A program made the position numbers and the translations under genes. Shown piece by piece: positions 6,162 through 31,053 of a stretch of 38,533 nt of DNA. A model generated the notes under the pieces. That model searched no databases. It saw only the letters and a program-made list of their open reading frames with translations, and was not told the DNA's origin. Position 1 is the stretch's first letter, and the number at the start of each line of letters is the position of its first letter. This DNA is from a virus (lineage: Duplodnaviria; Heunggongvirae; Uroviricota; Caudoviricetes), in the IMG/VR virus record IMGVR_UViG_2531839666_000019; one strand, written 5' to 3'.

Positions 6162-7037
6162 TTAAATTACGAAAACCTTGACGATAAGTTCTCCGTCTTT
6201 AGAAACTCTCTTCCCCTCAAGATCAGATTTCAGCCCCTCAGAATTAGTAATAAGCTGGTTCGGATCGTAGATGACACACCAGAGATTTTTGCAATCAGAG
6301 TGCCGACGATAATGCTCTATATCGATAATAAGTTCATCGCCGATTTTCTTTGCATGAGAACGATCACGAACAATTTTGGTTTCCAGTACTAATTTATGCG
6401 CAGGTAACAAAAAATCCATTCGAGTACTTGAACCAGCGTAACTTGGAGTAAACTCTTCTGGGCGGATGTCCTGAACCCATGGTCTGAGCAATGCATGGAG
6501 AAGGTCTTGCACGTCATATTCATTGCTAAAAGATAATGACTGGCTTCCTTTTCGCCTATGAGTAAGTGGATGCATTGCTCGCTGTAAGCCTTTGACCAGC
6601 CTTTCCAGTAAGTTCTCAACTTTTTCTGGCATTACTGGCTGTTGATAAGTAATTATGGTCTCTGGGTAATCCATATTGTGTGACGGGATGTGGCCTTCAG
6701 GCAACACTCGACCAAAACGATAATATCTAAGTCCATTCTCTTGTAACACAGCTTCAATTCTGTCTCGTTTTTCCTTCCATTCTGCATATTCGGGAGTACC
6801 TTCTTTTGGAGGTAAATCCATAAACTCCTCAATTACTCCGCCCAGAACTGCCAGACTATCTGTATCTGGATCTTGCCCTGCAAGAAATAACCAGTCTTTC
6901 CATTTTGTACTATGAGATCCTGCCGGAGGGTTTCCTGGTGCTCCCGAAGTAAGAAATAACGTATCTAAAGCTGCATGAGAGCCTGAGTTAGCAATGACAT
7001 CGCCAACTACTTTACATAAGGATCTTGATAACCGCAT
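6162..7037 (-). CDS. inserted accessory gene in the baseplate block; candidate PD-(D/E)xK-fold nuclease-like protein
   Basis: 291-aa ORF, visibly AT-richer than flanking genes, flanked by 71-bp and 81-bp spacers; C-terminal region contains D-x11-E-x-K (MDFLLPAHKLVLETKIV). Confidence 0.5.
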   Translation of the reverse strand: MRLSRSLCKVVGDVIANSGSHAALDTLFLTSGAPGNPPAGSHSTKWKDWLFLAGQDPDTDSLAVLGGVIEEFMDLPPKEGTPEYAEWKEKRDRIEAVLQENGLRYYRFGRVLPEGHIPSHNMDYPETIITYQQPVMPEKVENLLERLVKGLQRAMHPLTHRRKGSQSLSFSNEYDVQDLLHALLRPWVQDIRPEEFTPSYAGSSTRMDFLLPAHKLVLETKIVRDRSHAKKIGDELIIDIEHYRRHSDCKNLWCVIYDPNQLITNSEGLKSDLEGKRVSKDGELIVKVFVI

Positions 7038-8985: not shown

Positions 8986-9866
8986 ACACTCCTCGTCAGT
9001 ATTCTGGCGGCCATTGCACTTAATCCCGGAGACATGCGGTTGAATGCTGTGCCGGCGGCGTTAAGCTGCCCGGAAACGGTATCCAGAGCACCTGCAATAT
9101 TTCTTTTGTCCACACCACTCAGCGCCGACTGCGCCTGCTGTACATACGTGGCTGCCTCACTGGCTGTTCTGGCCAGACTGATGGCATCGGGCATGGATTC
9201 AGAGAGTACATTAAACGCCGGAATACTTTTCCCCAGAGCGCCGGATATATTACCCAGTCCGCTCATCAGTCCCGGCACACGGGTCAGCGCGACAACGGGG
9301 TTACCCTTCATTTTCTGCGCCACCCGAACGGCACTGATGGTGGTCTGGAGTACAGACTGCGCCTGTTTCGCATAGTTGACGCCGTTACGGACGAACTGCG
9401 CCACCCCGGAAGGCGATGGAACAGCACCAGATATGGCCCCGGCACCGGGAACCTGCCTGCGTATTGCCGGCGGTTGCAGAGGATTTTTCGGGTCACCGGT
9501 GTATTCCCGGAGAGACACGGTGGCACTGACAGCCAGCACGTTACCGGTGCTGTCTGTCTGCTCGCTGGTTGCGGTCACATCGGTAATCACGAACCAGCCG
9601 CGATAGTCACCGTTGCCGAAGACCAGCGCCAGTGCCTGATGGGCCTTCATGGCAGTTCGCACTCTCGCCAGCTCCACGTCGGGCACACAATAATGCTGAT
9701 GGAAGACCAGGCTTATCTGGATTTCGTCCAGCCTGTCGCCGACGAACTGCAGGCCGGGTTTACCCTCGATGCGGGCATGCTCCGCATAATCGACGCCAAA
9801 CGTGGCCTCGAAGCCGTCCCAGTAGGTAATCAGTTCAAACTCAATATCACCCAGTACGGCAAACAT
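8982..9866 (-). CDS. tail protein, Mu gp43-like (DNA circularisation protein N-terminal family)
   Basis: 294-aa ORF directly downstream of the tape measure gene. Confidence 0.6.
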   Translation of the reverse strand: MFAVLGDIEFELITYWDGFEATFGVDYAEHARIEGKPGLQFVGDRLDEIQISLVFHQHYCVPDVELARVRTAMKAHQALALVFGNGDYRGWFVITDVTATSEQTDSTGNVLAVSATVSLREYTGDPKNPLQPPAIRRQVPGAGAISGAVPSPSGVAQFVRNGVNYAKQAQSVLQTTISAVRVAQKMKGNPVVALTRVPGLMSGLGNISGALGKSIPAFNVLSESMPDAISLARTASEAATYVQQAQSALSGVDKRNIAGALDTVSGQLNAAGTAFNRMSPGLSAMAARILTRSV

Positions 9867-12332
9867 CAGCTGTACTCCTTACGTTGTTTCTGAGCCAGCA
9901 GACGCTCCAGCATTTTTTCCAGCTCATGCAGGCTCATATTCAGGGCACCAGCCAGCCCGGCAGGCGCTGCGGTTTCCTTACCATTGAGGAAAAACTGAGG
10001 ATTAAAGCTGACCTGGATACCGCCAGACGCTCCACCGCCGGTTGCAGTTGCGCCACGGCCTGAATATCCGGCAGCCATGATTTCCGGCGACGGGATACGG
10101 GGAACATCCGGTGTCATTTCAGCGGCCAGGCGCTGCCCGGCCAGTGCAGCAAGCGGAGTGGTCCGTTGCAGGCCAATGGCGGCACCCTGCGCGATATTGT
10201 CACCAAAGCCTATAAACACGCGACTCGGTGAATGGATGCCCAGCTTTTCGCTGAACCAGTCACTGATGCTGTCACCCATTCCGGTTATGCTGGTTTTCAG
10301 TGACGCCCATTTGTTTCTGATGCCATTTATCAGCCCGTCAATAAGATGACCACCGAAGTCGGTGAATTTCGCCGGCAAATCAACGCCGAGATATTTCAGC
10401 GCAGCCGCAAAGGCTTTATAAAGCAGACCTGCCGGAGACCAGTTAACCAGCAGTTTACCAATTCCCGCGATGCCGCCGTTAAAGGCTTCCTGAATGTCAG
10501 CCCAGCGCTGTTTAAACCAGCTACTGACAGCGCCCCAGTTGCGGTAGATAAGGTAAGCTGCTGCCGCGACGGCGGTGATAACGAGACCGATGGGATTCAT
10601 CAGCAGCGCCCGGCCAATCCAGAGAACGGCACGCCCGGCGCTCATAATTCCGCGAACCAGCCCCCCTGAGAGCACCCCCCCACGTCGTTCTGGTTCCTCT
10701 GGCGACGGCACCAAAGCCTGTCACCAGCCAGCGGAGTTTACCGCCTTCCCCCAGTGCGAGCATCAGACGAAGCCAGTTGGCCCGAAGTAAAACAGCATTT
10801 TTCCAGACGCTTACAAAGGGGGAAATAAGGAGATTCAGCCCAAACTTGAGACCGATAGTGGCCATCCTGAAAGCGAGTAATGCGCCCACAACCTTTATGG
10901 TGCTGCTGACGAGCTGCGGATTTGCCGCTATCCATTTGCCGACGCTGTCCATTAAAGGAATAAATGTTTCACCCAACTGGAGCAAAGCCGGACGCAAGGA
11001 TTGCCCGATGCTGATAGCAGAATCATTAAAGCCGATCTGCATTCTGCGCCAGCGACCTTCAAGCGTATCATTCTGCTTTGCAGCATCCTTATCCAGGGTA
11101 GACATTGCAGCCGGAGCATTCATTTCCTGCTTACTGGAAAGGTATTTATCCCAGCCCTGTCGCATTGACAGTAAATGGTTGACAGTCTGAATATCGGTAA
11201 AGACCTCAGCCAGACCAAATGACTCCATGAGTTTCTGCTGACCTTCCTGATCGCCTCTTGCTCCTGCAGCTTTCCATTGCTGCAAAAACGCTTTGCCTTT
11301 ACTGTCGATAAAACGGTTGGCAATCATCAGTGAAGCTTCGTACTGCGAAAAACCCTGAGCGACGTAATTCTGCATTGACCCCTGGTAATCCACCCCGGCT
11401 TTAGCATATTTCTGGATGGTATCTCCGCGGCCCATTGCTGCCAGCCAGTTGGACATATTGGTGACCGCTTCCTCTGCAGAGCCACTACCTTTACCGACCT
11501 CCAGACTGGCAACAATCTGGGTAATCGCATCTTTTCCATAAATACCACGAGCAGCGAAGGCTTTCGCCATACCGGGTAATGCTTTTGCCATATCCTTCAG
11601 CTCAAATGACCCAAGTTTGGCTCCTGTTGCCGCAATGCCAAACGCCTGTTCAAGTTCTTTCGCATCAGTGATTCTGAGTGCATCGCTGAAGGCATAAGTC
11701 ATTTTGGCAAGGTCGGTCATATCGGCTTTGGTTGCTGTAGCGGTCTTTCCAAGCATCTCTGCAAACGTTGCTGCCCGTTCGGGGGCCATACCATCAGCAA
11801 CTAATTGTCCGACTCCCCCTAACAGAGACTCCTGCAGTTGGTTAACCTTCAGCGAGGCCTGTCTGATAGCCAGGCCAATTGCACGTTCCTGTTTTGCATC
11901 CAGGTCTCCTGTGACACTGATATCCCGCAACTGTGATTCAAACGAGGCATATTGTTTAACCGAGGCCATGACCGGTGCGCCCAGCGTTCTGCCAATAGCA
12001 TAGGTTTCTGCACCCTGACCATAGAGCGCCAGGCGGTTAGCCTTCAACGCATCACCGGTGGCTGATACTGCTGACAGACGGCGCTGCTGACGTTCAATTT
12101 GCTCCATGGTGCGGCTTACCCGCAGCAACTCGCTGTTGAGATGCTGCATCCGGGAAGAACCCAGTTGACCATAACGTTCTGTTGCCCGGGTTAAGGCATT
12201 CTGGCGTTCCTGCAGACGGCGGGAGGTATCACCAAGGGAATCAAGGGCGCGTCGGGTGCCACTGACGGCTGAGCGGAAGCTGCTCCCGACAATGCCGCCA
12301 ATAATGACGCCGACTGAAAATTCACTGGCCAC
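9866..12332 (-). CDS. tail tape measure protein, reading frame broken within 10661-10681 (two ORFs 10521-12332 and 9866-10714)
   Basis: 603-aa plus 282-aa overlapping ORFs; coiled-coil-rich N part and hydrophobic segment LVRGIMSAGRAVLWIGRALLMNPIGLVITAVAAAAYLIY; removing one G from the G7 run (or the adjacent G6 run) joins the frames. Confidence 0.8.
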
Positions 12333-12424
12333 GGTGGCTATCCTCTGAAAGCAAAAAAACGGAAGGGAAGTGTCTGAACCCCATGCAGAACAGCCGCGAC
12401 TGGCGGCTGTTAAGTGATACGTTG

Positions 12425-12848
12425 TTACTGATTGTCGCCGAACTCGCTTTTGATTTGCTCTTCAGCCTGCTCCAGCCACATCTCCAGATCGTCAGTATCG
12501 AGGGCATCAATCTCCCCCGGCTGAAACCTGAACCATCTCGCCAGCAGGCCCTGCGCCTGCATCAGTGTTTTTGTCGCTCTTGCCCAGCCCAGTGATTTTC
12601 TGAAATCGTTTCTGCAGCTCCATATAGTCGGCAAGATCCATGTTATCGAGGTCTTCCGGGAGGATACCGGTGCTACGGGCAATCAGTGGTTCGTCCCAGT
12701 CTGCCGGGTCTTTGTTGATTTTGCGCACCTGCTTCAGGTCTTTTACTGTCAGGCGTTTCAGTTCAATCTGTTCAATTCTGGTACCTGCAGCAGTGGTGAA
12801 AGGATAAGACAGCGTAAAAGTATCGGACTGGGTCTGTGACATGATCAT
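12425..12848 (-). CDS. tail assembly chaperone (113-aa product 12507-12848) with a +1-frame 27-codon extension to 12425
   Basis: Position between tube and tape measure genes; second frame has an acidic C-terminus EIDALDTDDLEMWLEQAEEQIKSEFGDNQ; frames meet at a G5 run (plus-strand C5 at 12514-12518). Confidence 0.6.
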
Positions 12849-12910
12849 ACTCCTTTGTAAATTCAGAGCAGTATGTCTGGCGGTGGACGTGACGGATATT
12901 AAAGGAGATT

Positions 12911-12932
12911 AAGAAGAAGGGGCCGGAGCCCC
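12911..12932 (-). terminator. putative intrinsic terminator inside the late operon
   Basis: On the minus strand, hairpin GGGGC-UCCG-GCCCC followed by UUCUUCUU, starting 8 nt after the stop of the 93-aa gene. Confidence 0.4.
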
Positions 12933-12939
12933 TGTGATG

Positions 12940-13221
12940 TCAGCAAGTGCGAAAACCCTTGCAGTTACGCAGGAAAGCGATGAGAAGCGCCTTTCCCTCA
13001 GATTTGCCGATGCCGGAGAACCAGTGGTCGGGCGGCTCCCATGCTTCAATCAAATCGGCCAGTTTGCGGGCCTTTGAACGTGTGCAGTCAATCGGGTCAT
13101 TGGTTTTACGGGTATTAAAAAGGGTTTCCACCCCCGGAATATCAAGGAGGGTAAACCACGTACCATTTGACATGCCCAGTGACGCACATCGCCCTCCTTT
13201 GTCAGTCAGTTCAACACTCAC
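12940..13221 (-). CDS. hypothetical small Cys-containing protein between tail tube and chaperone genes
   Basis: 93-aa ORF tightly packed after the tube gene; no recognisable motif. Confidence 0.45.
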   Translation of the reverse strand: MSVELTDKGGRCASLGMSNGTWFTLLDIPGVETLFNTRKTNDPIDCTRSKARKLADLIEAWEPPDHWFSGIGKSEGKALLIAFLRNCKGFRTC

Positions 13222-13223
13222 CG

Positions 13224-13745
13224 TCAGCCCCCGATATTGATCCGATAGTCAGTCAGTTGATCAACGCCACCGACGCGGAAGATGTTGGCCAGATAGTCCA
13301 GTTGCAGCAACTCTTCACCATCCAGTACCTGTCTGATATACGTGCAGGTGAAGCTACTGGAGAACTCGGCGTTCTCGTGCTGTTTAAACGTCCCCAGCGG
13401 GTTCTTCTTGAACATAATTGTCAGGAAGGTGACCAGCGGGATTTCGTCGATCAGCCCCTGCGAGCTGTAGCGCTGGACGCTGGAGCGACACTGCAGCGCC
13501 AGCGACTTGTACGGGTTCGCGGCAGACAGCATCGCATCGCGGTAAAAGCTGTTCCATTTGATTTCGCCTTCCAGTTTGTCAAAACCAGCCGGGAGTTCCA
13601 CCTTACCCACCATCCCCAGTGCCTTGTGTTCCTGCATAATCATGGAGACATCGGGGAGTTTAACCTCCTCAGCCCGTCCCAGCAGGTTAGTACCATCCAG
13701 ATAGATGTTGGCATTCGTGATTCGGTTTATCTCAATCTTTGACAT
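13224..13745 (-). CDS. tail tube protein (Mu gp40-like)
   Basis: 173-aa ORF immediately downstream of the sheath gene, typical size. Confidence 0.75.
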   Translation of the reverse strand: MSKIEINRITNANIYLDGTNLLGRAEEVKLPDVSMIMQEHKALGMVGKVELPAGFDKLEGEIKWNSFYRDAMLSAANPYKSLALQCRSSVQRYSSQGLIDEIPLVTFLTIMFKKNPLGTFKQHENAEFSSSFTCTYIRQVLDGEELLQLDYLANIFRVGGVDQLTDYRINIGG

Positions 13746-15172
13746 CAGTTGCCCCCTTTCAGGGTTAACAGGTATTCCGAGGTGATCTCAGTCTCAAACG
13801 TCAGTCGCTCCAGCGGCGGTGGTGGCGTATATTTGTAGCTCAGCAACAGGTGCCCGGCGGCCAGCTCCGTTTCCGGATTGCGGGCCGGATCAAACCAGCA
13901 ACGGAAGCCCAGTACCGCGCCATCACCAGTCATTTTGCGACCGTAGGCGTTGACCGACTCCGTCAGTGCATCAATCAGCGCCTGAGTAATCGGCATGTCG
14001 ATGTACTGCTGGCTGAAGTAACGAATGGACTCATTGATCACATCACCGGTGCGGCGAACGTTCTCAAAGTTACGCATATGGGTGACCGTTGGCCATGCTG
14101 CCGTCCGGTTACCCCACAGACGAAGGCCGCTGCCGTAACTGCTGAATACCGTGGTGATCCCCTGTTCGTTAAGCAGGTTCACCTCGCTCTGCGGATCGTC
14201 AATCATTGCCGACAGCTGGCGCTCCACGCCGGTGATCCCCAGAATTTCCTGATTTGAGGATGACCACCAGTACCCTTTGTCCAGGTCGACTTTGGCACGC
14301 AGGCCCGCCGCACGCTGGCTCAGTGGCTCCAGACGTTCCGTGTTCGTCACCGGGTCATATACCTTCACATGCGGGTAGCACAGGCGGACACGGTCAGAGC
14401 TGGTATTAAAGTTAATGGTGCCTTCCGGGCCTCGTCCCGCCAGAGCCTGCGCAAAAGTGGTACCAACCGGCGCATCAATATAGGTTACTGCTCCCAGTTT
14501 CTCAGCCATGGCGATAAGCTCAACCGAGACGCTGTTCTGGGTGCAGAATACCGGAGCAATCAGGATTTTGGCGAAGTAGCCAAACAGGTTAAAACTGTCG
14601 TTAAGCAGCTTCATGCCGGTACGGTTGCCTGCAGCGTTAACGGTACCGATGATATCAGCCGGGGTGACTTTGGTCGGATCAGCATAGTTATAGCTGGCCT
14701 TCACCGTTGCATCTGCAGCAATGCTTTTACCCAGGTTAGTAATCACCCCGGTCTGTGCATCAAGCGAGTAGTCCTGACCTTCAACATAAGGCTGACCGTC
14801 GCTGTCCGGTTTCAGTACCAGCTGCGCGACCACCGGATTAGCCAGCCGGGCTCTGCCTGTCGCCTTGTCGAACGACACATTCTCACTGACCACAGCGGTT
14901 TTATGCACAGACGGATCGAGTACGTTAATGACCAGAACGGTGCCTGCACCATGGTCATAAATCGCATCCAGCGCCTGTGGAATGGTAAAGCCGGTGAACT
15001 GGCTGCCAAATGCCGCAGCGTCTTTCTCAGACAGGCACTGTACCAGCGTATTGACATCCCCCATTGGTGCGGTACCAATCAGGCCAATAACGGCAGATTT
15101 CACCGTTTTAACCGGGCGGGCACCGTTTTCCACTTCAATGGTTTCCGGACCATGCAGATAGTTAGCTGACAT
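13745..15172 (-). CDS. contractile tail sheath protein (Mu gp39-like)
   Basis: 475-aa ORF, N-terminus MSANYLHGPETIEVENGARPVKTVKSAVIGLIGTAP typical of sheath proteins. Confidence 0.85.
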   Translation of the reverse strand: MSANYLHGPETIEVENGARPVKTVKSAVIGLIGTAPMGDVNTLVQCLSEKDAAAFGSQFTGFTIPQALDAIYDHGAGTVLVINVLDPSVHKTAVVSENVSFDKATGRARLANPVVAQLVLKPDSDGQPYVEGQDYSLDAQTGVITNLGKSIAADATVKASYNYADPTKVTPADIIGTVNAAGNRTGMKLLNDSFNLFGYFAKILIAPVFCTQNSVSVELIAMAEKLGAVTYIDAPVGTTFAQALAGRGPEGTINFNTSSDRVRLCYPHVKVYDPVTNTERLEPLSQRAAGLRAKVDLDKGYWWSSSNQEILGITGVERQLSAMIDDPQSEVNLLNEQGITTVFSSYGSGLRLWGNRTAAWPTVTHMRNFENVRRTGDVINESIRYFSQQYIDMPITQALIDALTESVNAYGRKMTGDGAVLGFRCWFDPARNPETELAAGHLLLSYKYTPPPPLERLTFETEITSEYLLTLKGGN

Positions 15173-15416
15173 GGGCGTCCTCCGTTTTCACCTCGCTGTC
15201 ACCGCCGTTCCTGCGCTTTGGTGACTGCACAGCCGGTGTGCCGGCGGGTTTAATTTCTTCAGATACCGGCGTCAGATGCTTCAGCGCCACCAGTACCTTC
15301 ACGTAGTCATGCTCCTCCGGCAGGGAAACAGTCTTCCCCGGCCAGAGCAGGATTTCGGTTCCGTCCGACAGCGTGACGCCGCTGGCCGGGCCGGAATAGC
15401 GGTATTCTTTCATCAC
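15162..15416 (-). CDS. hypothetical protein (Mu gp38-like position)
   Basis: 84-aa ORF coupled to neighbours. Confidence 0.45.
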   Translation of the reverse strand: MMKEYRYSGPASGVTLSDGTEILLWPGKTVSLPEEHDYVKVLVALKHLTPVSEEIKPAGTPAVQSPKRRNGGDSEVKTEDAHVS

Positions 15417-15877
15417 TCGCTTTCCTCATAGTTCACTTCAGTTAACAGCGGGCCGGACGGTAAATCGCTGTCTTCGATAAAGACGCTTTCAGTCGCGAAG
15501 TCGAGGGCGTACTGCCACAGCCCCCTGACTTCACCGATAAACACCTCGCGGGTCAGCCAGATACGGCGGCGGCACCCGGGCGGGGTGTAGCCACCAAGAA
15601 TGCGGCGGACAGCATCCAGGACATTAATCGCCCCTTTTTTACCGTTGAGCTGTCGGAAGACCACCGTGACGCAGAGCTGGATAGTCTGAGGCTGGATCAC
15701 CGCACCGGTATCATCCGGCCTGTCGAAACGCGATCCTGCATAGCTCAGCAGCAACGCCCCGACAGAATGATTGAGGCGGTATTCGGACGGCTTTTCCGGG
15801 AAGTACTCAACCTGCAGCTGAGGCAGCTTCTCGCGCAACCGGGCCAGCACCGCATCAAGGACGGGCAGAACATTCAT
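15413..15877 (-). CDS. head-tail joining/tail completion protein (Mu gp37-like)
   Basis: 154-aa ORF in the conserved position. Confidence 0.55.
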   Translation of the reverse strand: MNVLPVLDAVLARLREKLPQLQVEYFPEKPSEYRLNHSVGALLLSYAGSRFDRPDDTGAVIQPQTIQLCVTVVFRQLNGKKGAINVLDAVRRILGGYTPPGCRRRIWLTREVFIGEVRGLWQYALDFATESVFIEDSDLPSGPLLTEVNYEESE

Positions 15878-16323
15878 CAGTATTTCTCCAGTAAGCCGTC
15901 ACGACCGCCGAAAGTGGCCGGGCGGCTGCGTACACGAAACTCTCCTGGCTCAGGCATATCTTTCTGAGTGGACGGCAGCCCCAGCGTAAGCCTGTTATCA
16001 CGTAACTCCTTCAGTTGCCGCAGCGCTTCTTTGTGGTCATCCTTCACCGTATCCGGGAGGTCACCTTCCGGGCGGCGGGCGTAGAGCCGGTAACGGACCA
16101 GCGTGATGGCAATGTCCCGCAGAACGGTCGGTATCTCCGCCAGCGGCAGGATATAGCGTCCGCGCAGATGGGCATCAATCAGCTCGTCGGCATAGCGGAT
16201 ACAGCTCTCCACCACACGGGTATTCACTGTCGCAGGCGAGTCGAAGTCCATCTCTTCACTGGTGAGCTCGATCAGCGTTCGTTCCGGCACCTGCTCAAGC
16301 AAATCCTCCAGGGTGCAGTACAT
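15877..16323 (-). CDS. head-tail connector protein (Mu gp36-like, DUF1320-like)
   Basis: Start trimmed from 16485 to the ATG at 16323, which abuts the upstream gene stop at 16325; MYCTLEDLLEQVPERTLIELT N-terminus. Confidence 0.55.
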   Translation of the reverse strand: MYCTLEDLLEQVPERTLIELTSEEMDFDSPATVNTRVVESCIRYADELIDAHLRGRYILPLAEIPTVLRDIAITLVRYRLYARRPEGDLPDTVKDDHKEALRQLKELRDNRLTLGLPSTQKDMPEPGEFRVRSRPATFGGRDGLLEKY

Positions 16324-16324
16324 G

Positions 16325-16663
16325 TCACACCCCGCGCAGGATACGAATGACGTCGCCTTCACCCCCGGCTTCATCAAGTGCAATACCACAGGATTTACCG
16401 TCGCCGGACTGCGGCACGGCTCTGGCCTGAGCATCTGACTGAACAGCCACACCACGGCTGACCGCAGCACCGGCCTCAACAGCAATAATGCCCAGAACGC
16501 TCACCGGCGTGCTGTCGCCGGTAACAGCATCCACTTCGGCAACCCCGAGCGCTGCGGCACCGGCTTTACAGGGGGTATTATCTGCCCCGACAAAACGCTG
16601 CTGTGCCAGTTCTGCCCCTGCCGTTACGGTTGTAATCAGAATGACCTGCTGAGTGGTTCCCAT
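16325..16663 (-). CDS. small Ala/Gly-rich head protein (possible decoration or head-associated protein)
   Basis: 112-aa ORF directly downstream of the major capsid gene. Confidence 0.45.
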   Translation of the reverse strand: MGTTQQVILITTVTAGAELAQQRFVGADNTPCKAGAAALGVAEVDAVTGDSTPVSVLGIIAVEAGAAVSRGVAVQSDAQARAVPQSGDGKSCGIALDEAGGEGDVIRILRGV

Positions 16664-16672
16664 AACGCCTCC

Positions 16673-17626
16673 TTATTTACTGATACCGGTGATGAGATAC
16701 CCGGCATCGCCACCAACCACGGCGACTTTGTAGATATCGGTATAACGGCAGTACTTCACCTTGCCACCGGCACCGTCGTATTTGTCTGCAACAGGCATCC
16801 CCTTACGGCGCAGGGTGTAGCCGAAGGACGGCTCGTTCTCGTCCGCGCTGTCCGCCCCCGGCTGCGGCTTGCCGACGTAGTGCAGCATCAGGTTGTCTCC
16901 CCAGATATCCGCCGGCACGCTGTCCCTATCCATTGCCGCTTTCATGGATGGCAGGGAGACAGGGGCACCGATGACGATCTCTTCGATCTGAAAGAGGTCC
17001 TGCAGGATCTCCGTAGTGATGCGCTTGCGTTCGTTGGCTCCGATGGCAGCCTGAATCGCCGGGTGGAACTTCAGCAGCGCCATCACGCTGGCACCCATGG
17101 TCATCAGGTTAGGACGCAGCCCCGTGGCCGTACGGACCGCTTCCATACCGGCTTCAATCACCCCGATGGGGTCCCCCTTACCACCGGCCCAGCGATCACT
17201 GGCTGTCAGTTTTTTAACGTGCCCGGTACGGTAGACCTTTTCATCCTGAGCCAGACGGGCGGCGATAAGTTCACGGCGCAGATTCACGCCATTCGTGGCG
17301 CGACGGATGGCCTTGCTCTCCTCGTTAAACATGGACTCCGCCTGCTCGCGATAGTCCACCGGCGCAGCCAGATCGTGCTCACCCAGCACCAGATCAAGCG
17401 TGCCGGTTTTCTCACGGACCAGAACATTGCTGTCCGCCCCGACGGCACGCTCAGTGTCATATTCCACAAAGGCGGTTTTCCCGAAGGTCGGCACACGCAC
17501 GCCTTCCTTGTCCGTCAGCACGACGGGGAAAATACGTTCGCCAATGAATGCGGCATTTTTATAGCCTCGGGCGATACTGGTCAGTACCGGATCAACGACA
17601 CGTTTACCTTTTAAGTAATCAGACAT
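16673..17626 (-). CDS. major capsid protein (Mu T-like)
   Basis: 317-aa ORF after the protease/scaffold gene; size and order typical. Confidence 0.8.
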   Translation of the reverse strand: MSDYLKGKRVVDPVLTSIARGYKNAAFIGERIFPVVLTDKEGVRVPTFGKTAFVEYDTERAVGADSNVLVREKTGTLDLVLGEHDLAAPVDYREQAESMFNEESKAIRRATNGVNLRRELIAARLAQDEKVYRTGHVKKLTASDRWAGGKGDPIGVIEAGMEAVRTATGLRPNLMTMGASVMALLKFHPAIQAAIGANERKRITTEILQDLFQIEEIVIGAPVSLPSMKAAMDRDSVPADIWGDNLMLHYVGKPQPGADSADENEPSFGYTLRRKGMPVADKYDGAGGKVKYCRYTDIYKVAVVGGDAGYLITGISK

Positions 17627-17640
17627 GATTTCTCCTTAAA

Positions 17641-18756
17641 TTACAGGCAGCGTGCGACAGCAGCCTCATAGCTGATGCCTTCTTTTTTGGACAGGGCCAC
17701 TGCTTTCTGATGCAGGGCCAGACGCTCAGGATCGGCTTCCGCAAACTCCGCCACATCCACCTTCACCGTGTCGCCGACACGCTCCTTTGTGGCCTGTTCG
17801 GCGAAATTCATCACCGGCTCCCCGTCGGAGAGCAATGAACGGAAGGCGGTGGCCAGCGGCGTGCGGCTTTCCCCCTCAGCAAACTCCACCGGCTTGTCGC
17901 CACCGGCGACGGCATCCAGCAGGGCAACCACCACGGAGGAGGCGCGGGGAGCCAGACGCCCCTCTGCGACCAGTTTTTCTGCAAAGGCCACATTGTCCTT
18001 ATGCAGTTGCTCCTGTCTGGCCTGTGCATCACGCGCATCGCGATCAGCAGCCTGCTGCTTCAGGCGGCGGTTCTCCTCCTGAAGGGCTTCAATCTCTTCT
18101 TTTGTCATCGATGATTCCTCGTTACTTGCGGAAGACGGCACCTGGCCTGTCTCACTGAATTGTGCACCTGCTGCATCCTGCGACGGTGTGTCGCGGTACG
18201 CCTCTTCGCGCAGATTGTTGAGCTGCCATTCCGGCAGGACTTTTTCTGCTTCGTCCAGACTGAAGCGGGCGATCAGAAAATCGCGCAGCTTTCCCCACAG
18301 GGAGGCATTCGTGATGGCCTGCCAGTCGGCGAACTCCACCACACCTTCCTCCTGCTCACTGAAGGACACCTGTTTCAGCCCCTTGACGGAAGGTGGCTGT
18401 GCCCCGAGAAAGCCCACATGGCGCAGGTAGAGCACGCCGGGCTTCGGATTGGACGGTGAATCCGGGAGGTAGAAAGAGGCGGACACTTTTTTGAATCGTC
18501 CGTCGGTGACCATCTCAGCAAACTGCGGGTCCAACTGGGCAGGCTCTGCCATCAGATCGACGCCGCTGAGCGACAGGGCTTTCACCCAGCCCCACGCCGG
18601 GTCTTCCGTTCTGGGATGACCAATCACGAGTGGTGCTTCATGGACGGACGGGTCATAGGCTTTCACGCAGGCGGCAAGATCGTCTGGCGTGAACGGCAGT
18701 TTTTTGCCGTGCATATCGGTATGAGTACCGGCTTTAAAAATGTGAATGGCTGACAT
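17641..18756 (-). CDS. head protease/scaffold protein (Mu I-like)
   Basis: 371-aa ORF, N-terminus MSAIHIFKAGTHTDMHGKKLPF, charged coiled-coil C-terminal half. Confidence 0.75.
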   Translation of the reverse strand: MSAIHIFKAGTHTDMHGKKLPFTPDDLAACVKAYDPSVHEAPLVIGHPRTEDPAWGWVKALSLSGVDLMAEPAQLDPQFAEMVTDGRFKKVSASFYLPDSPSNPKPGVLYLRHVGFLGAQPPSVKGLKQVSFSEQEEGVVEFADWQAITNASLWGKLRDFLIARFSLDEAEKVLPEWQLNNLREEAYRDTPSQDAAGAQFSETGQVPSSASNEESSMTKEEIEALQEENRRLKQQAADRDARDAQARQEQLHKDNVAFAEKLVAEGRLAPRASSVVVALLDAVAGGDKPVEFAEGESRTPLATAFRSLLSDGEPVMNFAEQATKERVGDTVKVDVAEFAEADPERLALHQKAVALSKKEGISYEAAVARCL

Positions 18757-18880
18757 TTTGCTGTCCCGCGTTATGTTGTCGGAGACAGTTTGTGAGAAAT
18801 GCAGGCCCGGCGATTTTAATCTGCTTTAGAAAACATCAGGGGAGAAGGACAGGGAAAGCAATGCGGTGAACCGGAAGCGG

Positions 18881-18924
18881 TTATAAAACAGAGGCTGTAA
18901 AGCCTTTATAAAGGTAATACAGCC
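18881..18924 (-). terminator. dyad-symmetry element, possible terminator or regulatory site between G-like and I-like genes
   Basis: GGCTGTA...TACAGCC 7-bp stem enclosing the perfect palindrome CCTTTATAAAGG, followed on the minus strand by UCUGUUUUAUAA. Confidence 0.3.
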
Positions 18925-18970
18925 CCTCATTCGCTGGCAATGATAAATCACCCGCCTGAAGAGAGAAAAC

Positions 18971-19429
18971 TCAGCGACGGGCCGCTGATTCAAGATGGCG
19001 GACAATGGTATCGAGGATGGGGATTACCACTTCAGGCTGTAGTTCTCCATCCCCCGTCACCGGCAGGAACGGGCGGGCCGGAAGTTCAACAGACTCATTA
19101 CGCCCCGTTTTACCCCCGAACTGGTGAATGGCACCGTAAACAACGTTGGTCCCCACAACAGCCTGCCGGTCGTCATGGTCGGTTGATACTGACCCCATCA
19201 GACGCCCGGTATCCTGCAGTGTCTGCCCGTCACGTTCTTCCGCTGCCAGCGAGGGCATCCACCCCGGACGCCCCTCATCAAGAAAGTTAAACTGTGTTTC
19301 CGCCAGCAGGGTTCCGGCGATTTTGCGCATCGCGGGCTCCAGGTCTGTGGCAGCAAGATCCAGCGCACGGAGGCTCCGGCGCAGGGATTTATCGTTAATG
19401 GTGATACTGACTAGGTTATCGGAAGCCAT
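18971..19429 (-). CDS. virion morphogenesis protein (Mu G/gp31-like)
   Basis: 152-aa ORF immediately downstream of the F-like gene. Confidence 0.65.
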   Translation of the reverse strand: MASDNLVSITINDKSLRRSLRALDLAATDLEPAMRKIAGTLLAETQFNFLDEGRPGWMPSLAAEERDGQTLQDTGRLMGSVSTDHDDRQAVVGTNVVYGAIHQFGGKTGRNESVELPARPFLPVTGDGELQPEVVIPILDTIVRHLESAARR

Positions 19430-19431
19430 TG

Positions 19432-20220
19432 TTATCCTCTCAGTTCCTGTTGTGCCAGTGGCTGAAACGTACCCTGATAGCGGGCCAGGTCGGGACGGTA
19501 TGCTGCCCCCGGTGCATAAGACCAGCCGACGTCGGTGGTCACCTTCGTGGTGCCGGTATTAAAGGTGGCCACGTTCCGCATTTCGCCGGTTTTCTCTGAG
19601 ACCAGTTTCAGTTCCTGGCCCATGACAGAGCCGGAGCTGATAACCTTCAGGCCACGGGCACGTACATCCGCCGCACTCAGGGCAATCACACTACAGCGGC
19701 AGCGCCAGCCGTTCGGCGGGTAAAATGCCTGCCAGAACGGGTCATCCCAGCGCAGCACCAGACCATGCAGCGCCAGATGGCTCCTGCGGGTATGGCTGTC
19801 GTTGATGCCGGTATACATCCAGTACGGCCTGTCGTCGACGTTTTCCATCTGCTCCGCCCAACGACCGGCGCTGTAGAGTACGGACATATTGGTGCGAAAG
19901 ATGGTATCGAGCCGCCACGGACTGCCCTGCTGAATGGTGACCGGCTCACCCGTTACCGGGTCAGTCGTGTCACGTGGTCCCCACCATCCCTTACGCTTCA
20001 GCACCGGCTCCAGCGCCTGCCGGAACCAGCGATCGGTTTTTCCTTCATCGACAGCCTGCTGCAGTGCCCCGCGAATATCTTCCAGGATATCCAGGCGGGT
20101 CACTTTAGCGACGGTAAAGGCGCGGGCATGGGCTTCCTGCCACATCTCCTCCCAGTCCCAGGTAATCTGATACCCTTTGGACTTCAGGTAGCTGACTGCC
20201 CGCTTCGGGGGAAGCGTCAT
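19432..20220 (-). CDS. head morphogenesis protein (Mu F/gp30-like)
   Basis: Start trimmed to the ATG at 20220 (MTLPPKRAVSYLKSKGY), 13 bp after the portal stop. Confidence 0.75.
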   Translation of the reverse strand: MTLPPKRAVSYLKSKGYQITWDWEEMWQEAHARAFTVAKVTRLDILEDIRGALQQAVDEGKTDRWFRQALEPVLKRKGWWGPRDTTDPVTGEPVTIQQGSPWRLDTIFRTNMSVLYSAGRWAEQMENVDDRPYWMYTGINDSHTRRSHLALHGLVLRWDDPFWQAFYPPNGWRCRCSVIALSAADVRARGLKVISSGSVMGQELKLVSEKTGEMRNVATFNTGTTKVTTDVGWSYAPGAAYRPDLARYQGTFQPLAQQELRG

Positions 20221-20233
20221 GCAGTACGCCAGT

Positions 20234-21727
20234 TCAGCCGTTGTCACGCTCATGCAGACGCCCCCAGATATTTGCCACAAAGAGAATGCGGGCCAGCCGC
20301 TCCTGCAGATCGTCCGTGTTCATCTGAGGGTAGAGCTCCGCCAGTTCGCCCAGCAGCTCAGACGGGTTAACCCCGTTTTCGACCCGCCTGAACAGAGGTG
20401 CCAGGACGGGTTCCAGCGTGCCATTTAACACACCTCCGTTCATCAGAATGTCCAGCGCGTCGTCAAGCTGCTGTTGTGCATCATGATCGGCGCTTATCGC
20501 CTCGGCAAACTCCGCAGGCACTGCCCCGTCCGCAACCGGTGCATCAGAGAGGTCAATATCCCCCTCCTGCAGCTGGTACTCCCGCATGAAGTACTGCGGG
20601 GTCAGGCGTAGTCCCGCGCGGGTGAGTTTTTCGTCGCGGGTGGCACGGGTGTCATCAATGGCCTCCTGTTCCCACATGGCCCAGACCGGACACGGCACAT
20701 CGCCGAAGTTCAGGGTGACCACCGTTCTGATGACCTGATTCACTGCCGCCTGAATGATGTCCGCATCCGCATCGCGGATATCAGCCGTCACCTCCAGCCC
20801 GGCCTGTGCAGAGGCCTTGTTACTGTTCGCTTCCGTGGTCTGATTCTGACCGAGTAATGCAATGGAGATCTCACTGCGTGACAGCGTGATCAGCTCGCGG
20901 AATACCTCGCTGCTGTCCGCCTTGCCATCCGCGGCTTTGAGTTCAATGCTGCTGTCATCGGGGATGGCGGCCACAGCGTCCTCCACCATCTGCTCCATGG
21001 AGTCCAGCAGTTTTTCAATCTCTGCATCATTTGCACCCCTCGGGTGCTTACCGATCACCCACGGGGAGCCAAACTTTTCGGCAAAGCGGAGCCAGAATTT
21101 CATCCCGCCTTTCTTGAAGGCGACCGGCCAGAAGCACATGGACAGGTCCGGGAAACCGTAAGGATTGTCATACGAGGCATCCTGTGCCGGCACCACGAAT
21201 TTTGACGGTGACAGCAGCTCACCCTCCACACCCGCATCACGCGCCCGGAAGCGCAGGCAGTTGTCCGTATCAAACTGAAACCACTCAGGCGGTTTGCCGA
21301 CAATATCCGTCACCGCCCACGCCCTGACCGAACGGCCCCACATGATTTCACAGGGCTGATACCCGTAGAGCACGGCATCGCTCATCTCACCGATGATGCG
21401 GGACAGATCCAGATCGTCGAGCATGTCGCGGATGAAACGGAAGACCCGGGCAGAAGCGTGACCGCGCTCCAGTCCACGCTCCAGCGATTTGAGCGCTGCT
21501 TTACGTCTGCGGATACAGCCTCCGACCAGCGGGTCGGTGCGCAGTTCGCGGTAGATACGGATATCCCGTCCCTGAGCCTTGAGAATGGGATCAGGATTGG
21601 GCAGATACATGCCCAGTCCGTAAAAGTCGATCGCGCGGCTGCGGGAGGCAATCTGCGCGGTCAGTGATTTCTGAGGCTCAGAAAAAGCAACAAATTCATC
21701 GGGTGAAACCCAGATACCCCTCGCCAT
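20234..21727 (-). CDS. portal protein (Mu gp29-like, DUF935-like)
   Basis: 497-aa ORF directly after the terminase large subunit, typical size. Confidence 0.8.
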   Translation of the reverse strand: MARGIWVSPDEFVAFSEPQKSLTAQIASRSRAIDFYGLGMYLPNPDPILKAQGRDIRIYRELRTDPLVGGCIRRRKAALKSLERGLERGHASARVFRFIRDMLDDLDLSRIIGEMSDAVLYGYQPCEIMWGRSVRAWAVTDIVGKPPEWFQFDTDNCLRFRARDAGVEGELLSPSKFVVPAQDASYDNPYGFPDLSMCFWPVAFKKGGMKFWLRFAEKFGSPWVIGKHPRGANDAEIEKLLDSMEQMVEDAVAAIPDDSSIELKAADGKADSSEVFRELITLSRSEISIALLGQNQTTEANSNKASAQAGLEVTADIRDADADIIQAAVNQVIRTVVTLNFGDVPCPVWAMWEQEAIDDTRATRDEKLTRAGLRLTPQYFMREYQLQEGDIDLSDAPVADGAVPAEFAEAISADHDAQQQLDDALDILMNGGVLNGTLEPVLAPLFRRVENGVNPSELLGELAELYPQMNTDDLQERLARILFVANIWGRLHERDNG

Positions 21728-23321
21728 CAGAATCCCTCCAGCATACGGGCCGCCTGACGACGACGGCGTGAGCTTGCCTTCACCGGCCCTTTGTTAATTT
21801 CACGGCTGGCGAAATACGCCAGCGCCAGTGCGATGGCTGAATCCCCGTGGCGTTTACCACCGTCAGCCTTTGCTTTTGAGCGTTGCTCCGGTACGCGGGG
21901 GACACCGTTCACCACCTGAACGGCCCGCAGGTCATCCAGTGTGTCTTCATCCTTTGGTAAGTCCACCAGGTTACCGTCTTCCAGTGCAGCTTTGACCGGA
22001 GGCATATGCTCCCTGTACCAGCCTTCGGTTGGCATCACCTGCTGAATCCGGCTGGAGCCGTAGCGCTGCATGGCGTATTCAGCCAGATAGGCACCATTAC
22101 CACGGGCATCAAACGCTGCACCCAGCAGACCGGGCAGGCCATCCATCAGATACCAGGTGATTTGCTCCTGCTGTCTGAACGGCACGTTACGCAGCTCCAG
22201 TACGAATGGCACGCGTCGTACCAGGTTCTTCTCCTGCAGCAGGGGATAGTCCACCGACAAATCACCGCTACGGCCAAAGTCGCGCCCCAGGAAAGAGCGG
22301 GCATCAGTGGGGAGTGCCTCCAGCAATGGTTTCAGATACTCATCAAGCCAGTCCTGCGTCTCGCGGAAGCGAACCTCATCAGACAGCAGTTCATAACCTT
22401 CCTTGCAGGTCAGACGCAATACCGGCGTATCAGCGGACATGCGGGACTCTATCAGGGCACGGGACAGCCAGGCACCGCCACCGTTGGCCGGAATACAGTC
22501 AAGCTCTTCGGATGCGCCGGCACCGTAGAATTTGTACACCGATGCCATCCAGGCCTGCTCGGAGGCCTCCGACCATTCCTTCCCGGTGCGCAGACAGACG
22601 CGCCGGAACAGCCCCTCAGATACGGCTTCCCGGAAAGTGATGCGATGTATGCTGCCTCCCTGACGTCCGGCACGGATATCCCCGATAAGCGTATTGAACG
22701 GATTGTCGTCACCGTTATGGGTGGAGATAACGTGTACCTTCCCCCCCAGATAAGCATCGCCAGCGCCGCTTTCAGCAGTTCGTCCAGTTGCTCATGGAAC
22801 GCCGCTTCGTCGATAACAATAATACCCTGACGGCCACGCAGGTTAGACGGGCGGCTGGAGAGCGCAACAATACGAAAGCCGGAGTCAGGAAATTTGATGG
22901 TGTAAGTCCTGATGTGTTTGTCGTCGTCGTCCTCTTCCCAGAATCCTTCTTCAATTTCACTGGCCGCATAGTTGAATGCCCGTGCCCACATCGCACACGC
23001 CTGAATGTATTCGACGGTCATGTCTTGGTTATAAGCGATGTAATACACATTCATCCCGCCTGCTGGCGCAGAAGAGGCGGCGGTCAGTACGTTATCGGAT
23101 GCCTCAGCCCATGTAATACCGGTACGACGGCTCTTTTCTATCACCTTAAGCGGAGAGGTGTCTGCCACCCAGCGCTGCTGGTAAGGCAACAGAACGGGAG
23201 GGGCATCCAGCGCCGAGGTATCAGGCAAAACGGGAGCAAGGTTATTCCTCCCGTCCATGGGACTCATCCCTTCGGGGCCGCCGCCAGCGGCGTTTAAAAT
23301 CACTCCGGATGATTTTGTCAT
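21727..23321 (-). CDS. terminase large subunit (Mu gp28-like), frame broken at a G7 run (plus-strand C7 at 22741-22747)
   Basis: Two overlapping ORFs (22452-23321 and 21727-22548); adding one G to the run gives a continuous protein of about 531 aa through WGGKVHVISTHNGDDNPFNTLIGDIRAGRQGGSIHRITF. Confidence 0.8.
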
Positions 23322-27153: not shown

Positions 27154-27561
27154 TCAGAAAACAATCCTTATCGAACAAACACTGCACGTAGGTAATGCAT
27201 CCAGTAAATCGCGTTAATAGAAATCATGTATCTCAAAACTTCACTCTGAACTCTGACAGTGAAAGAACGACCAGCCCGGTACCCGAACTCCGGGCTGGTC
27301 ATCGCCCCACAGGAATGCACTGTGAGCCGACCGAGGTTCAGTCAGTCTCGCGAGACCAGACTAGCCTGCCATATTTTTATAATTATAAAAGGGTTACAGA
27401 TTATGAAAATGCAGACATTCCCCATCGCTCCATGGATTGGTTGTAAACGCCGCCATGCCAGACATATTCTGGCCGATGTTTCCTAGCACGCACGAATATG
27501 AGGCAACTGACGAGAATAAATGATGCGTCAGAATGAACCGTCGACACCGTGATTTCAGGTT

Positions 27562-28232: not shown

Positions 28233-28269
28233 TTGTTGGTCAAGTAATAGAGCTCTACATGGGGCGGTC
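28233..28269. repeat. 37-bp direct repeat, left copy flanking IS1
   Basis: TTGTTGGTCAAGTAATAGAGCTCTACATGGGGCGGTC, identical to 29038-29074. Confidence 0.9.
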
Positions 28270-28284
28270 GGTAATGACTCCAAC

Positions 28285-28788
28285 TTATTGATAGTGTTTT
28301 ATGTTCAGATAATGCCCGATGACTTTGTCATGCAGCTCCACCGATTTTGAGAACGACAGCGACTTCCGTCCCAGCCGTGCCAGGTGCTGCCTCAGATTCA
28401 GGTTATGCCGCTCAATTCGCTGCGTATATCGCTTGCTGATTACGTGCAGCTTTCCCTTCAGGCGGGATTCATACAGCGGCCAGCCATCCGTCATCCATAT
28501 CACCACGTCAAAGGGTGACAGCAGGCTCATAAGACGCCCCAGCGTCGCCATAGTGCGTTCACCGAATACGTGCGCAACAACCGTCTTCCGGAGCCTGTCA
28601 TACGCGTAAAACAGCCAGCGCTGGCGCGATTTAGCCCCGACATAGCCCCACTGTTCGTCCATTTCAGCGCAGACAATCACATCACTGCCCGGCTGTATGC
28701 GCGAAGTTACCGACTGCGGCCTGAGTTTTTTAAGTGACGTAAAGTCGTGTTGAGGCCAACGCCCATAATGCGGGCTGTTGCCCGGCAT
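28285..28788 (-). CDS. insB: IS1 InsB (transposase reading frame, normally expressed as InsAB by frameshift)
   Basis: 167-aa ORF matching IS1 InsB. Confidence 0.9.
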
Positions 28789-28982
28789 CCAACGCCATTC
28801 ATGGCCATATCAATGATTTTCTGGTACGTACCGGGTTGAGAAGCGGTGTAAGTGAACTGCAGTTGCCATGTTTTACGGCAGTGAGAGCAGAGATAGCGCT
28901 GATGTCCGGCGGTGCTTTTGCCGTTACGCACCACCCCGTCAGTAGCTGAACAGGAGGGACAGCTGATAGAAACAGAAGCCAC
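28707..28982 (-). CDS. insA: IS1 InsA
   Basis: 91-aa protein [40 protein letters not shown]. Confidence 0.95.
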
Positions 28983-29010
28983 TGGAGCACCTCAAAAACA
29001 CCATCATACA

Positions 29011-30493: not shown

Positions 30494-30682
30494 ATGACTT
30501 CCGAACAAGTTAAAACTCTCTTCCGTCAGCGTGGTATCACGTTTACCCGCTGGGCCGAAGAACACGGCTACAGCCGCAATGAGGTCTATCGTGTTCTCAA
30601 TGGACAGACCAAAGCTCGTTACGGCAAAGCCCATGAAATTGCCGTAAAGCTGGGATTAAAACCCACGTCAAATGCGGCATAA
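30494..30682 (+). CDS. Ner-like/Cro-like small DNA-binding protein
   Basis: 62-aa protein with the GY...L.G....G..IA..LGL pattern resembling Ner-family regulators; first gene of the rightward early operon. Confidence 0.6.
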   Translation: MTSEQVKTLFRQRGITFTRWAEEHGYSRNEVYRVLNGQTKARYGKAHEIAVKLGLKPTSNAA

Positions 30683-30734
30683 ATTTTCCATATATGCAAC
30701 AGGTTATCACATATTGCAAAAATGGAAATGTGAC

Positions 30735-31043: not shown

Positions 31044-31053
31044 GGAGTAATCA

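What the first reader, a model, noticed from the sequence alone, without database searches (positions are those of the whole stretch)
10661..22747. All three frame disruptions in essential genes occur at G/C homopolymers
The breaks in terminase (C7), tape measure (C6/C7) and chaperone (C5) all lie in homopolymer tracts. Two need a deleted base and one an added base to restore the frame. This pattern is typical of homopolymer errors in some sequencing chemistries. If real, it would mean the prophage is defective while its accessory genes remain intact.
Basis: inference. Interest (0 to 1): 0.4.

Follow-up and report, generated by a model that had tools for sequence, protein, structure and literature searches.

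The report
Sequencing errors plus one programmed frameshift
Of three apparent gene breaks in this Mu-like E. coli prophage, one is almost certainly and one probably a homopolymer error of flow-based sequencing, and the third is the normal programmed frameshift of phage tail chaperone genes, so nothing shows the prophage is defective.

Summary
The three frame changes are in the sequence, in a Mu-like (Bcepmuvirus-like) prophage of E. coli O128:H2 strain 9.0111.

- **Tape measure (very likely artefact).** Relatives read CCCCCCCCAGTGTTCT. The window reads CCCCCCCACGTCGTTCT. A 454 flow simulation (order TACG) reproduces this exactly: the C8 run called as C7, plus a spurious C in each of the two nearest empty C flows. 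All 25 complete E. coli genomes carrying this segment are in frame.
- **Terminase (probably an under-call).** The window has G7. The nearest relatives, 1-3 SNPs away over 36 kb, and 28 complete genomes have G8. A real mutation cannot be excluded, because a more distant clade (an NCTC assembly and a Logan contig) also has G7. In the sister lineage 11 of 532 complete genomes are frameshifted at the same tract.
- **Chaperone (no defect).** This is the conserved programmed frameshift of tail assembly chaperones, verified as a -2 shift in phage Mu. Comparison with 78 relatives shows the +1 frame is under selection from at least 35 nt upstream of the G5. The homopolymer there is coincidental.

Verdict: ordinary, low interest.

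The parts
21727..23321 (-). Terminase large subunit gene (Mu gp28-like). It is read as two ORFs: 23321..22452 (289 aa) and 22548..21727.
   Evidence: With one G added, the 531-aa protein matches phrog_2 'terminase large subunit' over residues 41-519 (E = 2e-38). PhiKM annotates its homologue as terminase large subunit, Mup28.
22741..22747 (-). C7 (G7 on the coding strand) where the terminase frame breaks. The intact reading is W-G-G-K-V.
   Evidence: L001, L003, L004, L012 and 28 RefSeq complete genomes have G8. No RefSeq genome has the exact G7 context. G7 also occurs in L005 (same strain), L006 and L007.
9866..12332 (-). Tail tape measure protein gene. It is read as two ORFs: 12332..10521 (603 aa) and 10714..9866.
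   Evidence: The intact 821-aa homologue in L001 matches phrog_28 over residues 1-821 (E = 8.5e-119) and PF10145.
10661..10686 (-). TMP lesion: C6 (10661-10666), C7 (10675-10681), and two extra C's at 10683 and 10686, compared with relatives.
   Evidence: The flow simulations reproduce the window sequence exactly from the relatives' sequence. None of 25 complete genomes has this form.
12507..12842 (-). Tail assembly chaperone ORF (gpE / Mu gp41-like, 111 aa), zero frame.
   Evidence: PF10109 Phage_TAC_7, E = 1.4e-22. It lies between the tail tube gene and the TMP gene.
12425..12608 (-). +1/-2-frame extension of the chaperone (E'-like). The shift zone is inferred at about 12608-12560 and the extension stops at 12425.
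   Evidence: Codon-position and synonymous/non-synonymous analysis of 44 unique relatives. phrog_8286, E = 4e-31. Weak, sub-threshold PF06528 GpE hit. Mu precedent.
12514..12518 (-). G5 (C5 on the + strand) next to the zero-frame stop of the chaperone. It encodes Pro-Gly-Glu in the +1 frame and is not the shift site.
   Evidence: The run is G4 in 5 relatives and absent in 2. At least 35 of 78 relatives end the zero frame at a TAG 21 nt upstream of it.
27374..27378 (.). Intergenic T5 private to this assembly. Relatives have T6.
   Evidence: L006, L007 and L012 have T6. None of 177 complete genomes has the window's exact form, and the best hits span one more base.

Best explanation
The window is a Mu-like prophage of E. 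coli O128:H2 9.0111 (WGS AEZZ, JCVI). Its assembly was built from indel-prone, flow-based (454-type) reads. The reading below is a compound of three separate explanations.

- **TMP: artefact.** The true sequence is most likely the relatives' in-frame ...AACACT-G8-TGC.... The G8 run was under-called by one. Out-of-phase incorporation (carry-forward or incomplete extension) added a spurious G in each of the two nearest empty G flows, giving AAC[G]AC[G]T-G7.
- **Terminase: probable under-call.** The G8 run was most likely under-called to G7 in the same way.
- **Chaperone: normal biology.** A fraction of ribosomes shift into the +1 frame (by -2 or +1) well upstream of the G5. They make a chaperone-E' fusion, as in Mu gp41/gp56, P2 E/E+E' and lambda G/GT.

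On this reading the prophage is probably intact in these three genes.

Shown here: the sequence differences, their uniqueness among relatives, the exact fit to the flow model, and the conservation of the chaperone's two-frame architecture. Inferred: the sequencing platform, and the true tract lengths in the strain.
For: **Source of the window.** The truncated products are identical to EII24492.1 and EII23942.1 of E. coli 9.0111. The strain is listed under WGS AEZZ, JCVI, in PMC3359367. The Logan assembly of run SRR063742 (L005) has 0 SNPs against the window over 21 kb. It has three further 1-nt homopolymer deletions, so it is the same strain sequenced with indel-prone reads.

**TMP.**
- Simulation with flow order TACG turns the relatives' sequence into the window's sequence exactly. 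This works as incomplete extension on the + strand or as carry-forward on the coding strand.
- Only 2 of the 6 possible cyclic flow orders reproduce it. A random-placement null does so in 27 of 200,000 trials.
- Huse 2007 gives GACTGGG to GACGTGGG as the typical 454 carry-forward error (PMC2323236).
- All 25 RefSeq complete genomes with this segment span 84 nt, which is in frame. None has the window's 85-nt form.
- KP12 and Phi06_2974B read T-L-G-G-V-L-S-G-G in frame.

**Terminase.**
- The window is 1-3 SNPs from the G8 genomes L001 and L012 over 15.6-36 kb.
- 28 RefSeq genomes have the exact G8 context and none the G7 context.

**Wider error pattern.**
- A third assembly-private contraction, T6 to T5, lies in intergenic DNA. 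None of 177 genomes shares it.
- Runs of 6-7 bases are all called like the relatives.

**Chaperone.**
- Mu has a verified -2 shift.
- Mu shows the same +1-frame geometry.
- The 3' end of the gene is identical in PhiKM, KP12 and all close relatives.
- The +1 frame shows purely synonymous variation from at least 35 nt upstream of the G5. The zero frame there shows non-synonymous changes and stops.
Against: - No reads or platform metadata could be inspected. The 454 attribution rests on the error profile alone.
- L005 also shows G7 and T5, but it comes from the same reads and is not independent.
- G7 in the terminase is shared with two other strains, NCTC UGAM01000005 and Logan SRR28250663. Real G8-to-G7 slippage therefore happens in this lineage.
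- 11 of 532 complete genomes of the sister lineage carry a -1 frameshift at the same tract, annotated by PGAP as 'frameshifted'.
- TMP G7 alleles also occur in nature: L009 has 0 SNPs against L001, and L011 has G7 too. The strain's true TMP tract could therefore be G7, with only the two spurious bases being artefacts.
- The terminase site has no spurious-base signature, so nothing marks it specifically as an error.
Confidence: 0.7

Rival explanations
1. Genuine prophage decay. The strain really carries G7 in the terminase, and possibly G7 in the TMP underneath the two spurious bases. The prophage then cannot package DNA or build tails, while its other genes persist.
For: G/C 8-mers are slippage hot spots. 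G7 terminase alleles occur in two other, independently sequenced strains. 11 of 532 complete genomes carry G6 in place of G7 and are annotated as frameshifted pseudogenes. TMP G7 alleles occur in Logan assemblies that are otherwise identical to intact relatives. More than 150 contigs in public data encode 289-aa truncated terminases.
Against: The window groups with G8 genomes, not with the G7 clade: the six SNPs shared by L006 and L007 are absent from it. Its TMP sequence carries an exact flow-artefact signature, showing that the assembly mis--mers. A neutral intergenic T-run is also contracted only in this assembly. No relative shares the TMP form.
Confidence: 0.2
2. The two poly-G tracts act as reversible on/off (contingency) switches of prophage productivity. 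Alternatively, the G7 alleles are rescued at low level by transcriptional or ribosomal slippage.
For: Tract length differs among near-identical prophages at both genes.
Against: The tracts are not conserved. KP12 and Phi06_2974B interrupt both of them (TGGGGCGGTAAAG; CTGGGTGGTGTG...CAGGTGGG) while keeping the same amino acids. Frameshifted alleles are rare, about 2%. No recoding signal is evident, and the window's own lesion is explained by an artefact.
Confidence: 0.04

Closest known systems
454/Ion-type homopolymer under-call with carry-forward / incomplete-extension (CAFIE) insertions
   Same: A long G/C run is shortened by one. Extra copies of the same base sit 1-4 nt from the run, exactly at empty flows of that base. 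This matches the published example GACTGGG to GACGTGGG (PMC2323236).
   Different: The error is present in an assembly consensus, not just in single reads. Two spurious bases are present rather than one. The platform of the run could not be verified here.
Programmed frameshift of tail assembly chaperones: Mu gp41/gp56 (-2), P2 E/E+E' (-1), lambda G/GT (-1)
   Same: The ORF pair sits between the tail tube gene and the tape measure gene. The upstream ORF belongs to PF10109. The extension lies in the +1/-2 frame, as in Mu.
   Different: Mu shifts on CGG GGG CGA. Here the G5 near the stop is not the site, and the frame switch lies about 45-95 nt upstream of it. The slippery sequence is not identified. 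AAA CGA UUU CA is invariant and is only a candidate.
Frameshift pseudogenes at poly-G tracts in resident Mu-like prophages of E. coli
   Same: The same terminase tract is shortened by one base in 11 RefSeq complete genomes and annotated 'frameshifted'. It is also shortened in NCTC UGAM01000005.
   Different: In the window the lesion is not inherited from the nearest relatives, and it co-occurs with an artefact signature in the same assembly.

Membership tests
Flow-sequencing (454-type) homopolymer/CAFIE artefact | The indel lies in a long homopolymer, usually as an under-call of the longest runs | tested here: met
   C8 to C7 at both 8-mers and T6 to T5. Runs of 6-7 bases agree with relatives.
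Flow-sequencing (454-type) homopolymer/CAFIE artefact | Spurious insertions of the same base at empty flows next to the run, as predicted by flow order TACG | tested here: met
   The window's TMP sequence is reproduced exactly. 2 of 6 cyclic flow orders do so. The random null succeeds in 27 of 200,000 trials. There is no such signature at the terminase site.
Flow-sequencing (454-type) homopolymer/CAFIE artefact | The variant is private to the assembly and absent from independent sequences of near-identical DNA | tested here: inconclusive
   Met for the TMP (0 of 25 genomes) and the T5 (0 of 177). Not met for terminase G7, which L006 and L007 share.
Flow-sequencing (454-type) homopolymer/CAFIE artefact | The run was made on a flow-based platform, and reads disagree in tract length | not testable with these tools
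   Indirect evidence only. The Logan assembly of SRR063742 has 0 SNPs and 3 homopolymer deletions against the window. By my arithmetic from the coordinates reported, its contig ends about 36 nt from the TMP site.
Tail assembly chaperone programmed frameshift (G/GT, E/E+E', Mu gp41/gp56) | Two overlapping ORFs between the tail tube gene and the tape measure gene, the first being a chaperone-family protein | tested here: met
   PF10109, E = 1.4e-22. Gene order.
Tail assembly chaperone programmed frameshift (G/GT, E/E+E', Mu gp41/gp56) | The second frame encodes a conserved extension under purifying selection | tested here: met
   Variation in the +1 frame is synonymous only from window position ~12553 downstream along the gene, across 44 unique relatives. 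phrog_8286, E = 4e-31. The PF06528 hit is below threshold, E = 0.006-0.025.
Tail assembly chaperone programmed frameshift (G/GT, E/E+E', Mu gp41/gp56) | An identifiable slippery sequence at the frame junction | tested here: inconclusive
   The G5 is excluded. The invariant CGA UUU CAG at 12608-12600 is only a candidate.
Tail assembly chaperone programmed frameshift (G/GT, E/E+E', Mu gp41/gp56) | The frameshift product is demonstrated experimentally | not testable with these tools
   It is verified only for Mu itself (note in AF083977; PMC5009743).
Prophage decay by frameshift pseudogenisation | The lesion is confirmed in the organism and inherited within a clade | tested here: not met
   The nearest relatives are intact. 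The TMP form is unique to this assembly. Terminase G7 is polyphyletic. Whether the lesions exist in the strain itself could not be tested.
Simple-sequence contingency (phase-variable) locus | The tract is maintained by selection across relatives | tested here: not met
   Both tracts are interrupted by synonymous changes in KP12 and Phi06_2974B.

The most novel reading that the evidence does not exclude
The two Gly-codon G8 tracts in the terminase and tape measure genes of this widespread E. coli Mu-like prophage are naturally hypermutable. They repeatedly toggle the prophage between productive and defective states. G7/G8 polymorphism among near-identical prophages, and about 2% frameshifted alleles in complete genomes, would then reflect this toggling. 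The window's terminase G7 would be one such real off-state.
Probability: 0.06. Interest if true: 0.45.

Novelty: not a real feature. Interest (0 to 1): 0.12.

Why it matters
The main value is as a caution. Automatic annotation of this draft genome deposited truncated terminase and tape measure proteins (EII24492.1, EII23942.1). A scan could read these as evidence of a domesticated or defective prophage.

The flow-order test used here turns a suspected homopolymer error into a specific, checkable signature. It needs only the consensus sequence and a close relative.

The chaperone analysis also shows that where a zero-frame ORF stops is a poor guide to where a programmed frameshift occurs.

Tried and rejected
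1. **Exact-pattern scan of IMG/VR for the terminase tract**. It gave only two loci, both G8, which is too few for statistics.

2. **G5 as a Mu-type -2 slippery site.** I first took the chaperone G5 to be the shift site, because Mu shifts on CGG GGG CGA. I rejected this after comparing 78 relatives. The zero-frame stop moves upstream of the G5 in most of them, the G5 is not conserved, and +1-frame selection begins well upstream.

3. **The G4 at CAGGGGCTG as the shift site.** It is absent from the window's own group and from L045 and L051.

4. **T6 at 35781-35786 as another assembly error.** I rejected this because 93 complete genomes share the window's form.

5. **Searches for strain or platform information**. 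They gave the strain identity (AEZZ, JCVI) but not the sequencing platform.

6. **Reaching the TMP site in the same-strain Logan contig.** This was not possible: the flank limit stops short, and by coordinate arithmetic the contig ends about 36 nt before the site.
Full report
**What the window is**

The window is a Mu-like prophage of E. coli. The late genes lie on the minus strand from about 3100 to 30400, and the early genes on the plus strand from about 30670 to 37300.

The 13.6-kb structural block matches 647 of 5426 complete E. coli genomes, at up to 100.0% (rounded) identity. It also matches Escherichia phage PhiKM (classified in Bcepmuvirus, 94.7%) and Klebsiella phage KP12 (84.8%).

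The truncated proteins encoded in the window are identical to EII24492.1 and EII23942.1 of E. coli 9.0111. That strain is an O128:H2 Stx2 strain, WGS project AEZZ, from JCVI (PMC3359367). The prophage sits in the pdu operon, at the same place as in NZ_CM143724.

**Checking the observation**

All three frame changes are present, with the stated polarity.

- **Terminase (23321..21727).** The frame changes at G7 on the coding strand, which is C7 at 22741-22747. One added G gives a 531-aa protein. It matches phrog_2 'terminase large subunit' across the break.
- **Tape measure gene (12332..9866).** The frame changes in the stretch holding C7 (10675-10681) and C6 (10661-10666). One net base must be removed.
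- **Chaperone ORF (12842..12507).** It stops just after a G5 (12514-12518). Its continuation is in the +1/-2 frame and runs to 12425.

The two C7 runs are the only G/C runs of 7 or more in the 38.5-kb window. Their coincidence with two breaks is therefore not chance. The chaperone's C5 is one of 46 such runs, so its position carries no weight.

**Tape measure gene**

On the plus strand, relatives L001 and L012 read CCCCCCCCAGTGTTCT. The window reads CCCCCCCACGTCGTTCT. This is not a plain tract-length change. The run is one base shorter, and two extra C's appear 1 and 4 bases beyond it.

I simulated pyrosequencing flows with the cyclic order T-A-C-G. That order is taken from my own knowledge of the 454 chemistry.

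- Under-calling the 8-mer by one, and placing a spurious C in each of the next two empty C flows, converts the relatives' sequence into the window's sequence exactly.
- Read on the coding strand, the same result arises as carry-forward: AACACT-G8 becomes AAC[G]AC[G]T-G7.
- Only 2 of the 6 possible cyclic flow orders reproduce the sequence. Random placement of two insertions does so in 27 of 200,000 trials.
- Huse et al. 2007 describe this class of error with the example GACTGGG to GACGTGGG (PMC2323236). Balzer et al. 2011 describe the same error class, CAFIE (PMC3117331).

All 25 complete E. coli genomes that carry this segment span 84 nt, which is in frame. None has the window's 85-nt form. 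KP12 and Phi06_2974B read T-L-G-G-V-L-S-G-G in frame, with interrupted tracts.

The Logan assembly of run SRR063742 (L005) has 0 SNPs against the window over 21 kb. It carries three more 1-nt homopolymer deletions, so the underlying reads are from the same strain and are indel-prone. By my arithmetic from the coordinates, that contig ends about 36 nt from the TMP site. This is suggestive only.

I conclude that the TMP break is an artefact, with probability about 0.9. One caveat remains. TMP G7 alleles do exist in other datasets: L009 has 0 SNPs against L001, and L011 has G7 too. The true tract could therefore be G7, with only the spurious bases being false.

**Terminase**

The window has G7. 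G8 is found in L001, L012, two IMG/VR contigs and 28 complete genomes with exactly identical flanks. No complete genome has the exact G7 context.

Over 36 kb the window differs from L012 at only a few places outside the invertible tail-fibre region:

- 3 SNPs;
- the TMP lesion;
- the terminase tract;
- an intergenic T5 where L012 has T6;
- a T6 where L012 has T4;
- one IS1.

The T5 is private to this assembly: none of 177 complete genomes shares it. The T6 is a common natural allele, shared by 93 genomes.

The assembly's private differences are therefore dominated by contractions of its longest runs. That pattern fits sequencing error.

G7 is not unique, however. NCTC assembly UGAM01000005 (L006) and Logan SRR28250663 (L007) also carry it. 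These two share six SNPs that the window lacks and differ from each other, so they form a separate clade in which G7 is probably real.

In the PhiKM-like sister lineage the intact tract is G7 followed by AAA. There, 521 complete genomes are intact and 11 have G6, annotated by PGAP as 'frameshifted'. More than 150 public contigs encode 289-aa truncated versions.

The tract is thus a genuine slippage hot spot, and a real mutation in 9.0111 cannot be excluded. I weighed three things: a frameshift frequency of about 2-5% in good genomes, a demonstrated 8-mer mis-call in the same assembly, and the window's position among G8 genomes. My judgement from these is a probability of error of about 0.75.

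**Chaperone**

The 111-aa ORF belongs to PF10109 (E = 1.4e-22). It lies between the tail tube gene and the tape measure gene.

Phage Mu has the same arrangement, with an experimentally verified -2 frameshift (AF083977 annotation; PMC5009743). Mu's extension is likewise in the +1 frame. The 3' end of the gene is identical in PhiKM, KP12, Phi06_2974B and all close relatives. This is therefore not a lesion.

I compared 78 relatives from IMG/VR. Three results follow.

- **The zero-frame stop moves.** It is a TGA after the G5 in some relatives. It is a TAG 21 nt upstream of the G5 in at least 35 loci, and lies further upstream in two.
- **The G5 is not conserved.** It is G4 in five relatives and absent in two.
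- **The +1 frame is selected well upstream of the G5.** Variable positions switch from third positions of frame 0 to third positions of the +1 frame about 45-95 nt upstream of the G5. From window position ~12553 downstream along the gene, the +1 frame shows only synonymous change. The zero frame there shows amino-acid changes and stops.

The programmed shift therefore occurs upstream, in roughly 12608-12560. The homopolymer only encodes Pro-Gly-Glu of the extension.

The invariant AAA CGA UUU CA shows no synonymous change in 52 unique sequences. It is a candidate shift signal, but this is inference. The extension matches phrog_8286 (E = 4e-31) and, below threshold, PF06528 GpE.

**Comparison with known systems, and verdict**

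Two of the three 'disruptions' match flow-sequencing homopolymer/CAFIE errors. One match is demonstrated by signature and one is probable. The third belongs to the well-known family of tail-chaperone programmed frameshifts, of the Mu type in geometry.

Neither poly-G tract is conserved at the nucleotide level in more distant relatives. There is therefore no sign of a selected switch.

The 'defective prophage' alternative is unsupported but not excluded for the terminase.

Nothing here is new biology, and interest is low. The residual novel reading is that these tracts act as natural on/off switches of prophage productivity. I give it a probability of about 0.06.

Noticed in passing
window 28270-29037 (flanking repeats 28233-28269 and 29038-29074): A 768-bp IS1 copy (InsA/InsB ORFs on the minus strand) is flanked by a perfect 37-bp direct repeat. 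That is far longer than IS1's usual target duplication of about 9 bp. The IS1 is absent from the same-strain Logan contig L005, from L006 and L012, and from every complete E. coli genome at this junction. It may be a mis-assembly or a sub-population insertion. It truncates the last codons of the 328-aa gene next to the repressor region.
   Followed up: partly
window 12611-12560, minus strand: The chaperone's frame switch lies about 45-95 nt upstream of its stop codon. AAA CGA UUU CA is invariant, with no synonymous change, in 52 unique relatives. It is a candidate signal for a +1 or -2 shift and differs from Mu's CGG GGG CGA.
   Followed up: partly
L006, L007 (terminase); L008-L011 (TMP); RefSeq hits H213-H223: Both Gly-codon G8 tracts vary in length among near-identical prophages in independent datasets. 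In the sister lineage, 11 of 532 complete genomes carry a -1 frameshift at the terminase tract, annotated 'frameshifted'. These are real mutational hot spots in resident Mu-like prophages.
   Followed up: partly
window 27374-27378: An intergenic T5 where L006, L007, L012 and the best-matching complete genomes have T6. None of 177 genomes matches the window exactly. It is probably a third homopolymer under-call in this assembly.
   Followed up: yes
window 1-1259 and 425-3100: The left end carries a recombinase (invertase-like) gene and alternative tail-fibre segments on the opposite strand, resembling Mu's invertible G segment. SNPs against L012 cluster at 1930-1969 in this region. The prophage is inserted in the pdu operon (pduO split), as in NZ_CM143724.
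   Followed up: no
window 6162-7037, minus strand: A 291-aa PD-(D/E)XK / DpnII-MboI-like nuclease gene sits among the baseplate genes. It is an accessory (moron-like) gene inside the tail module and is conserved in relatives.
   Followed up: no
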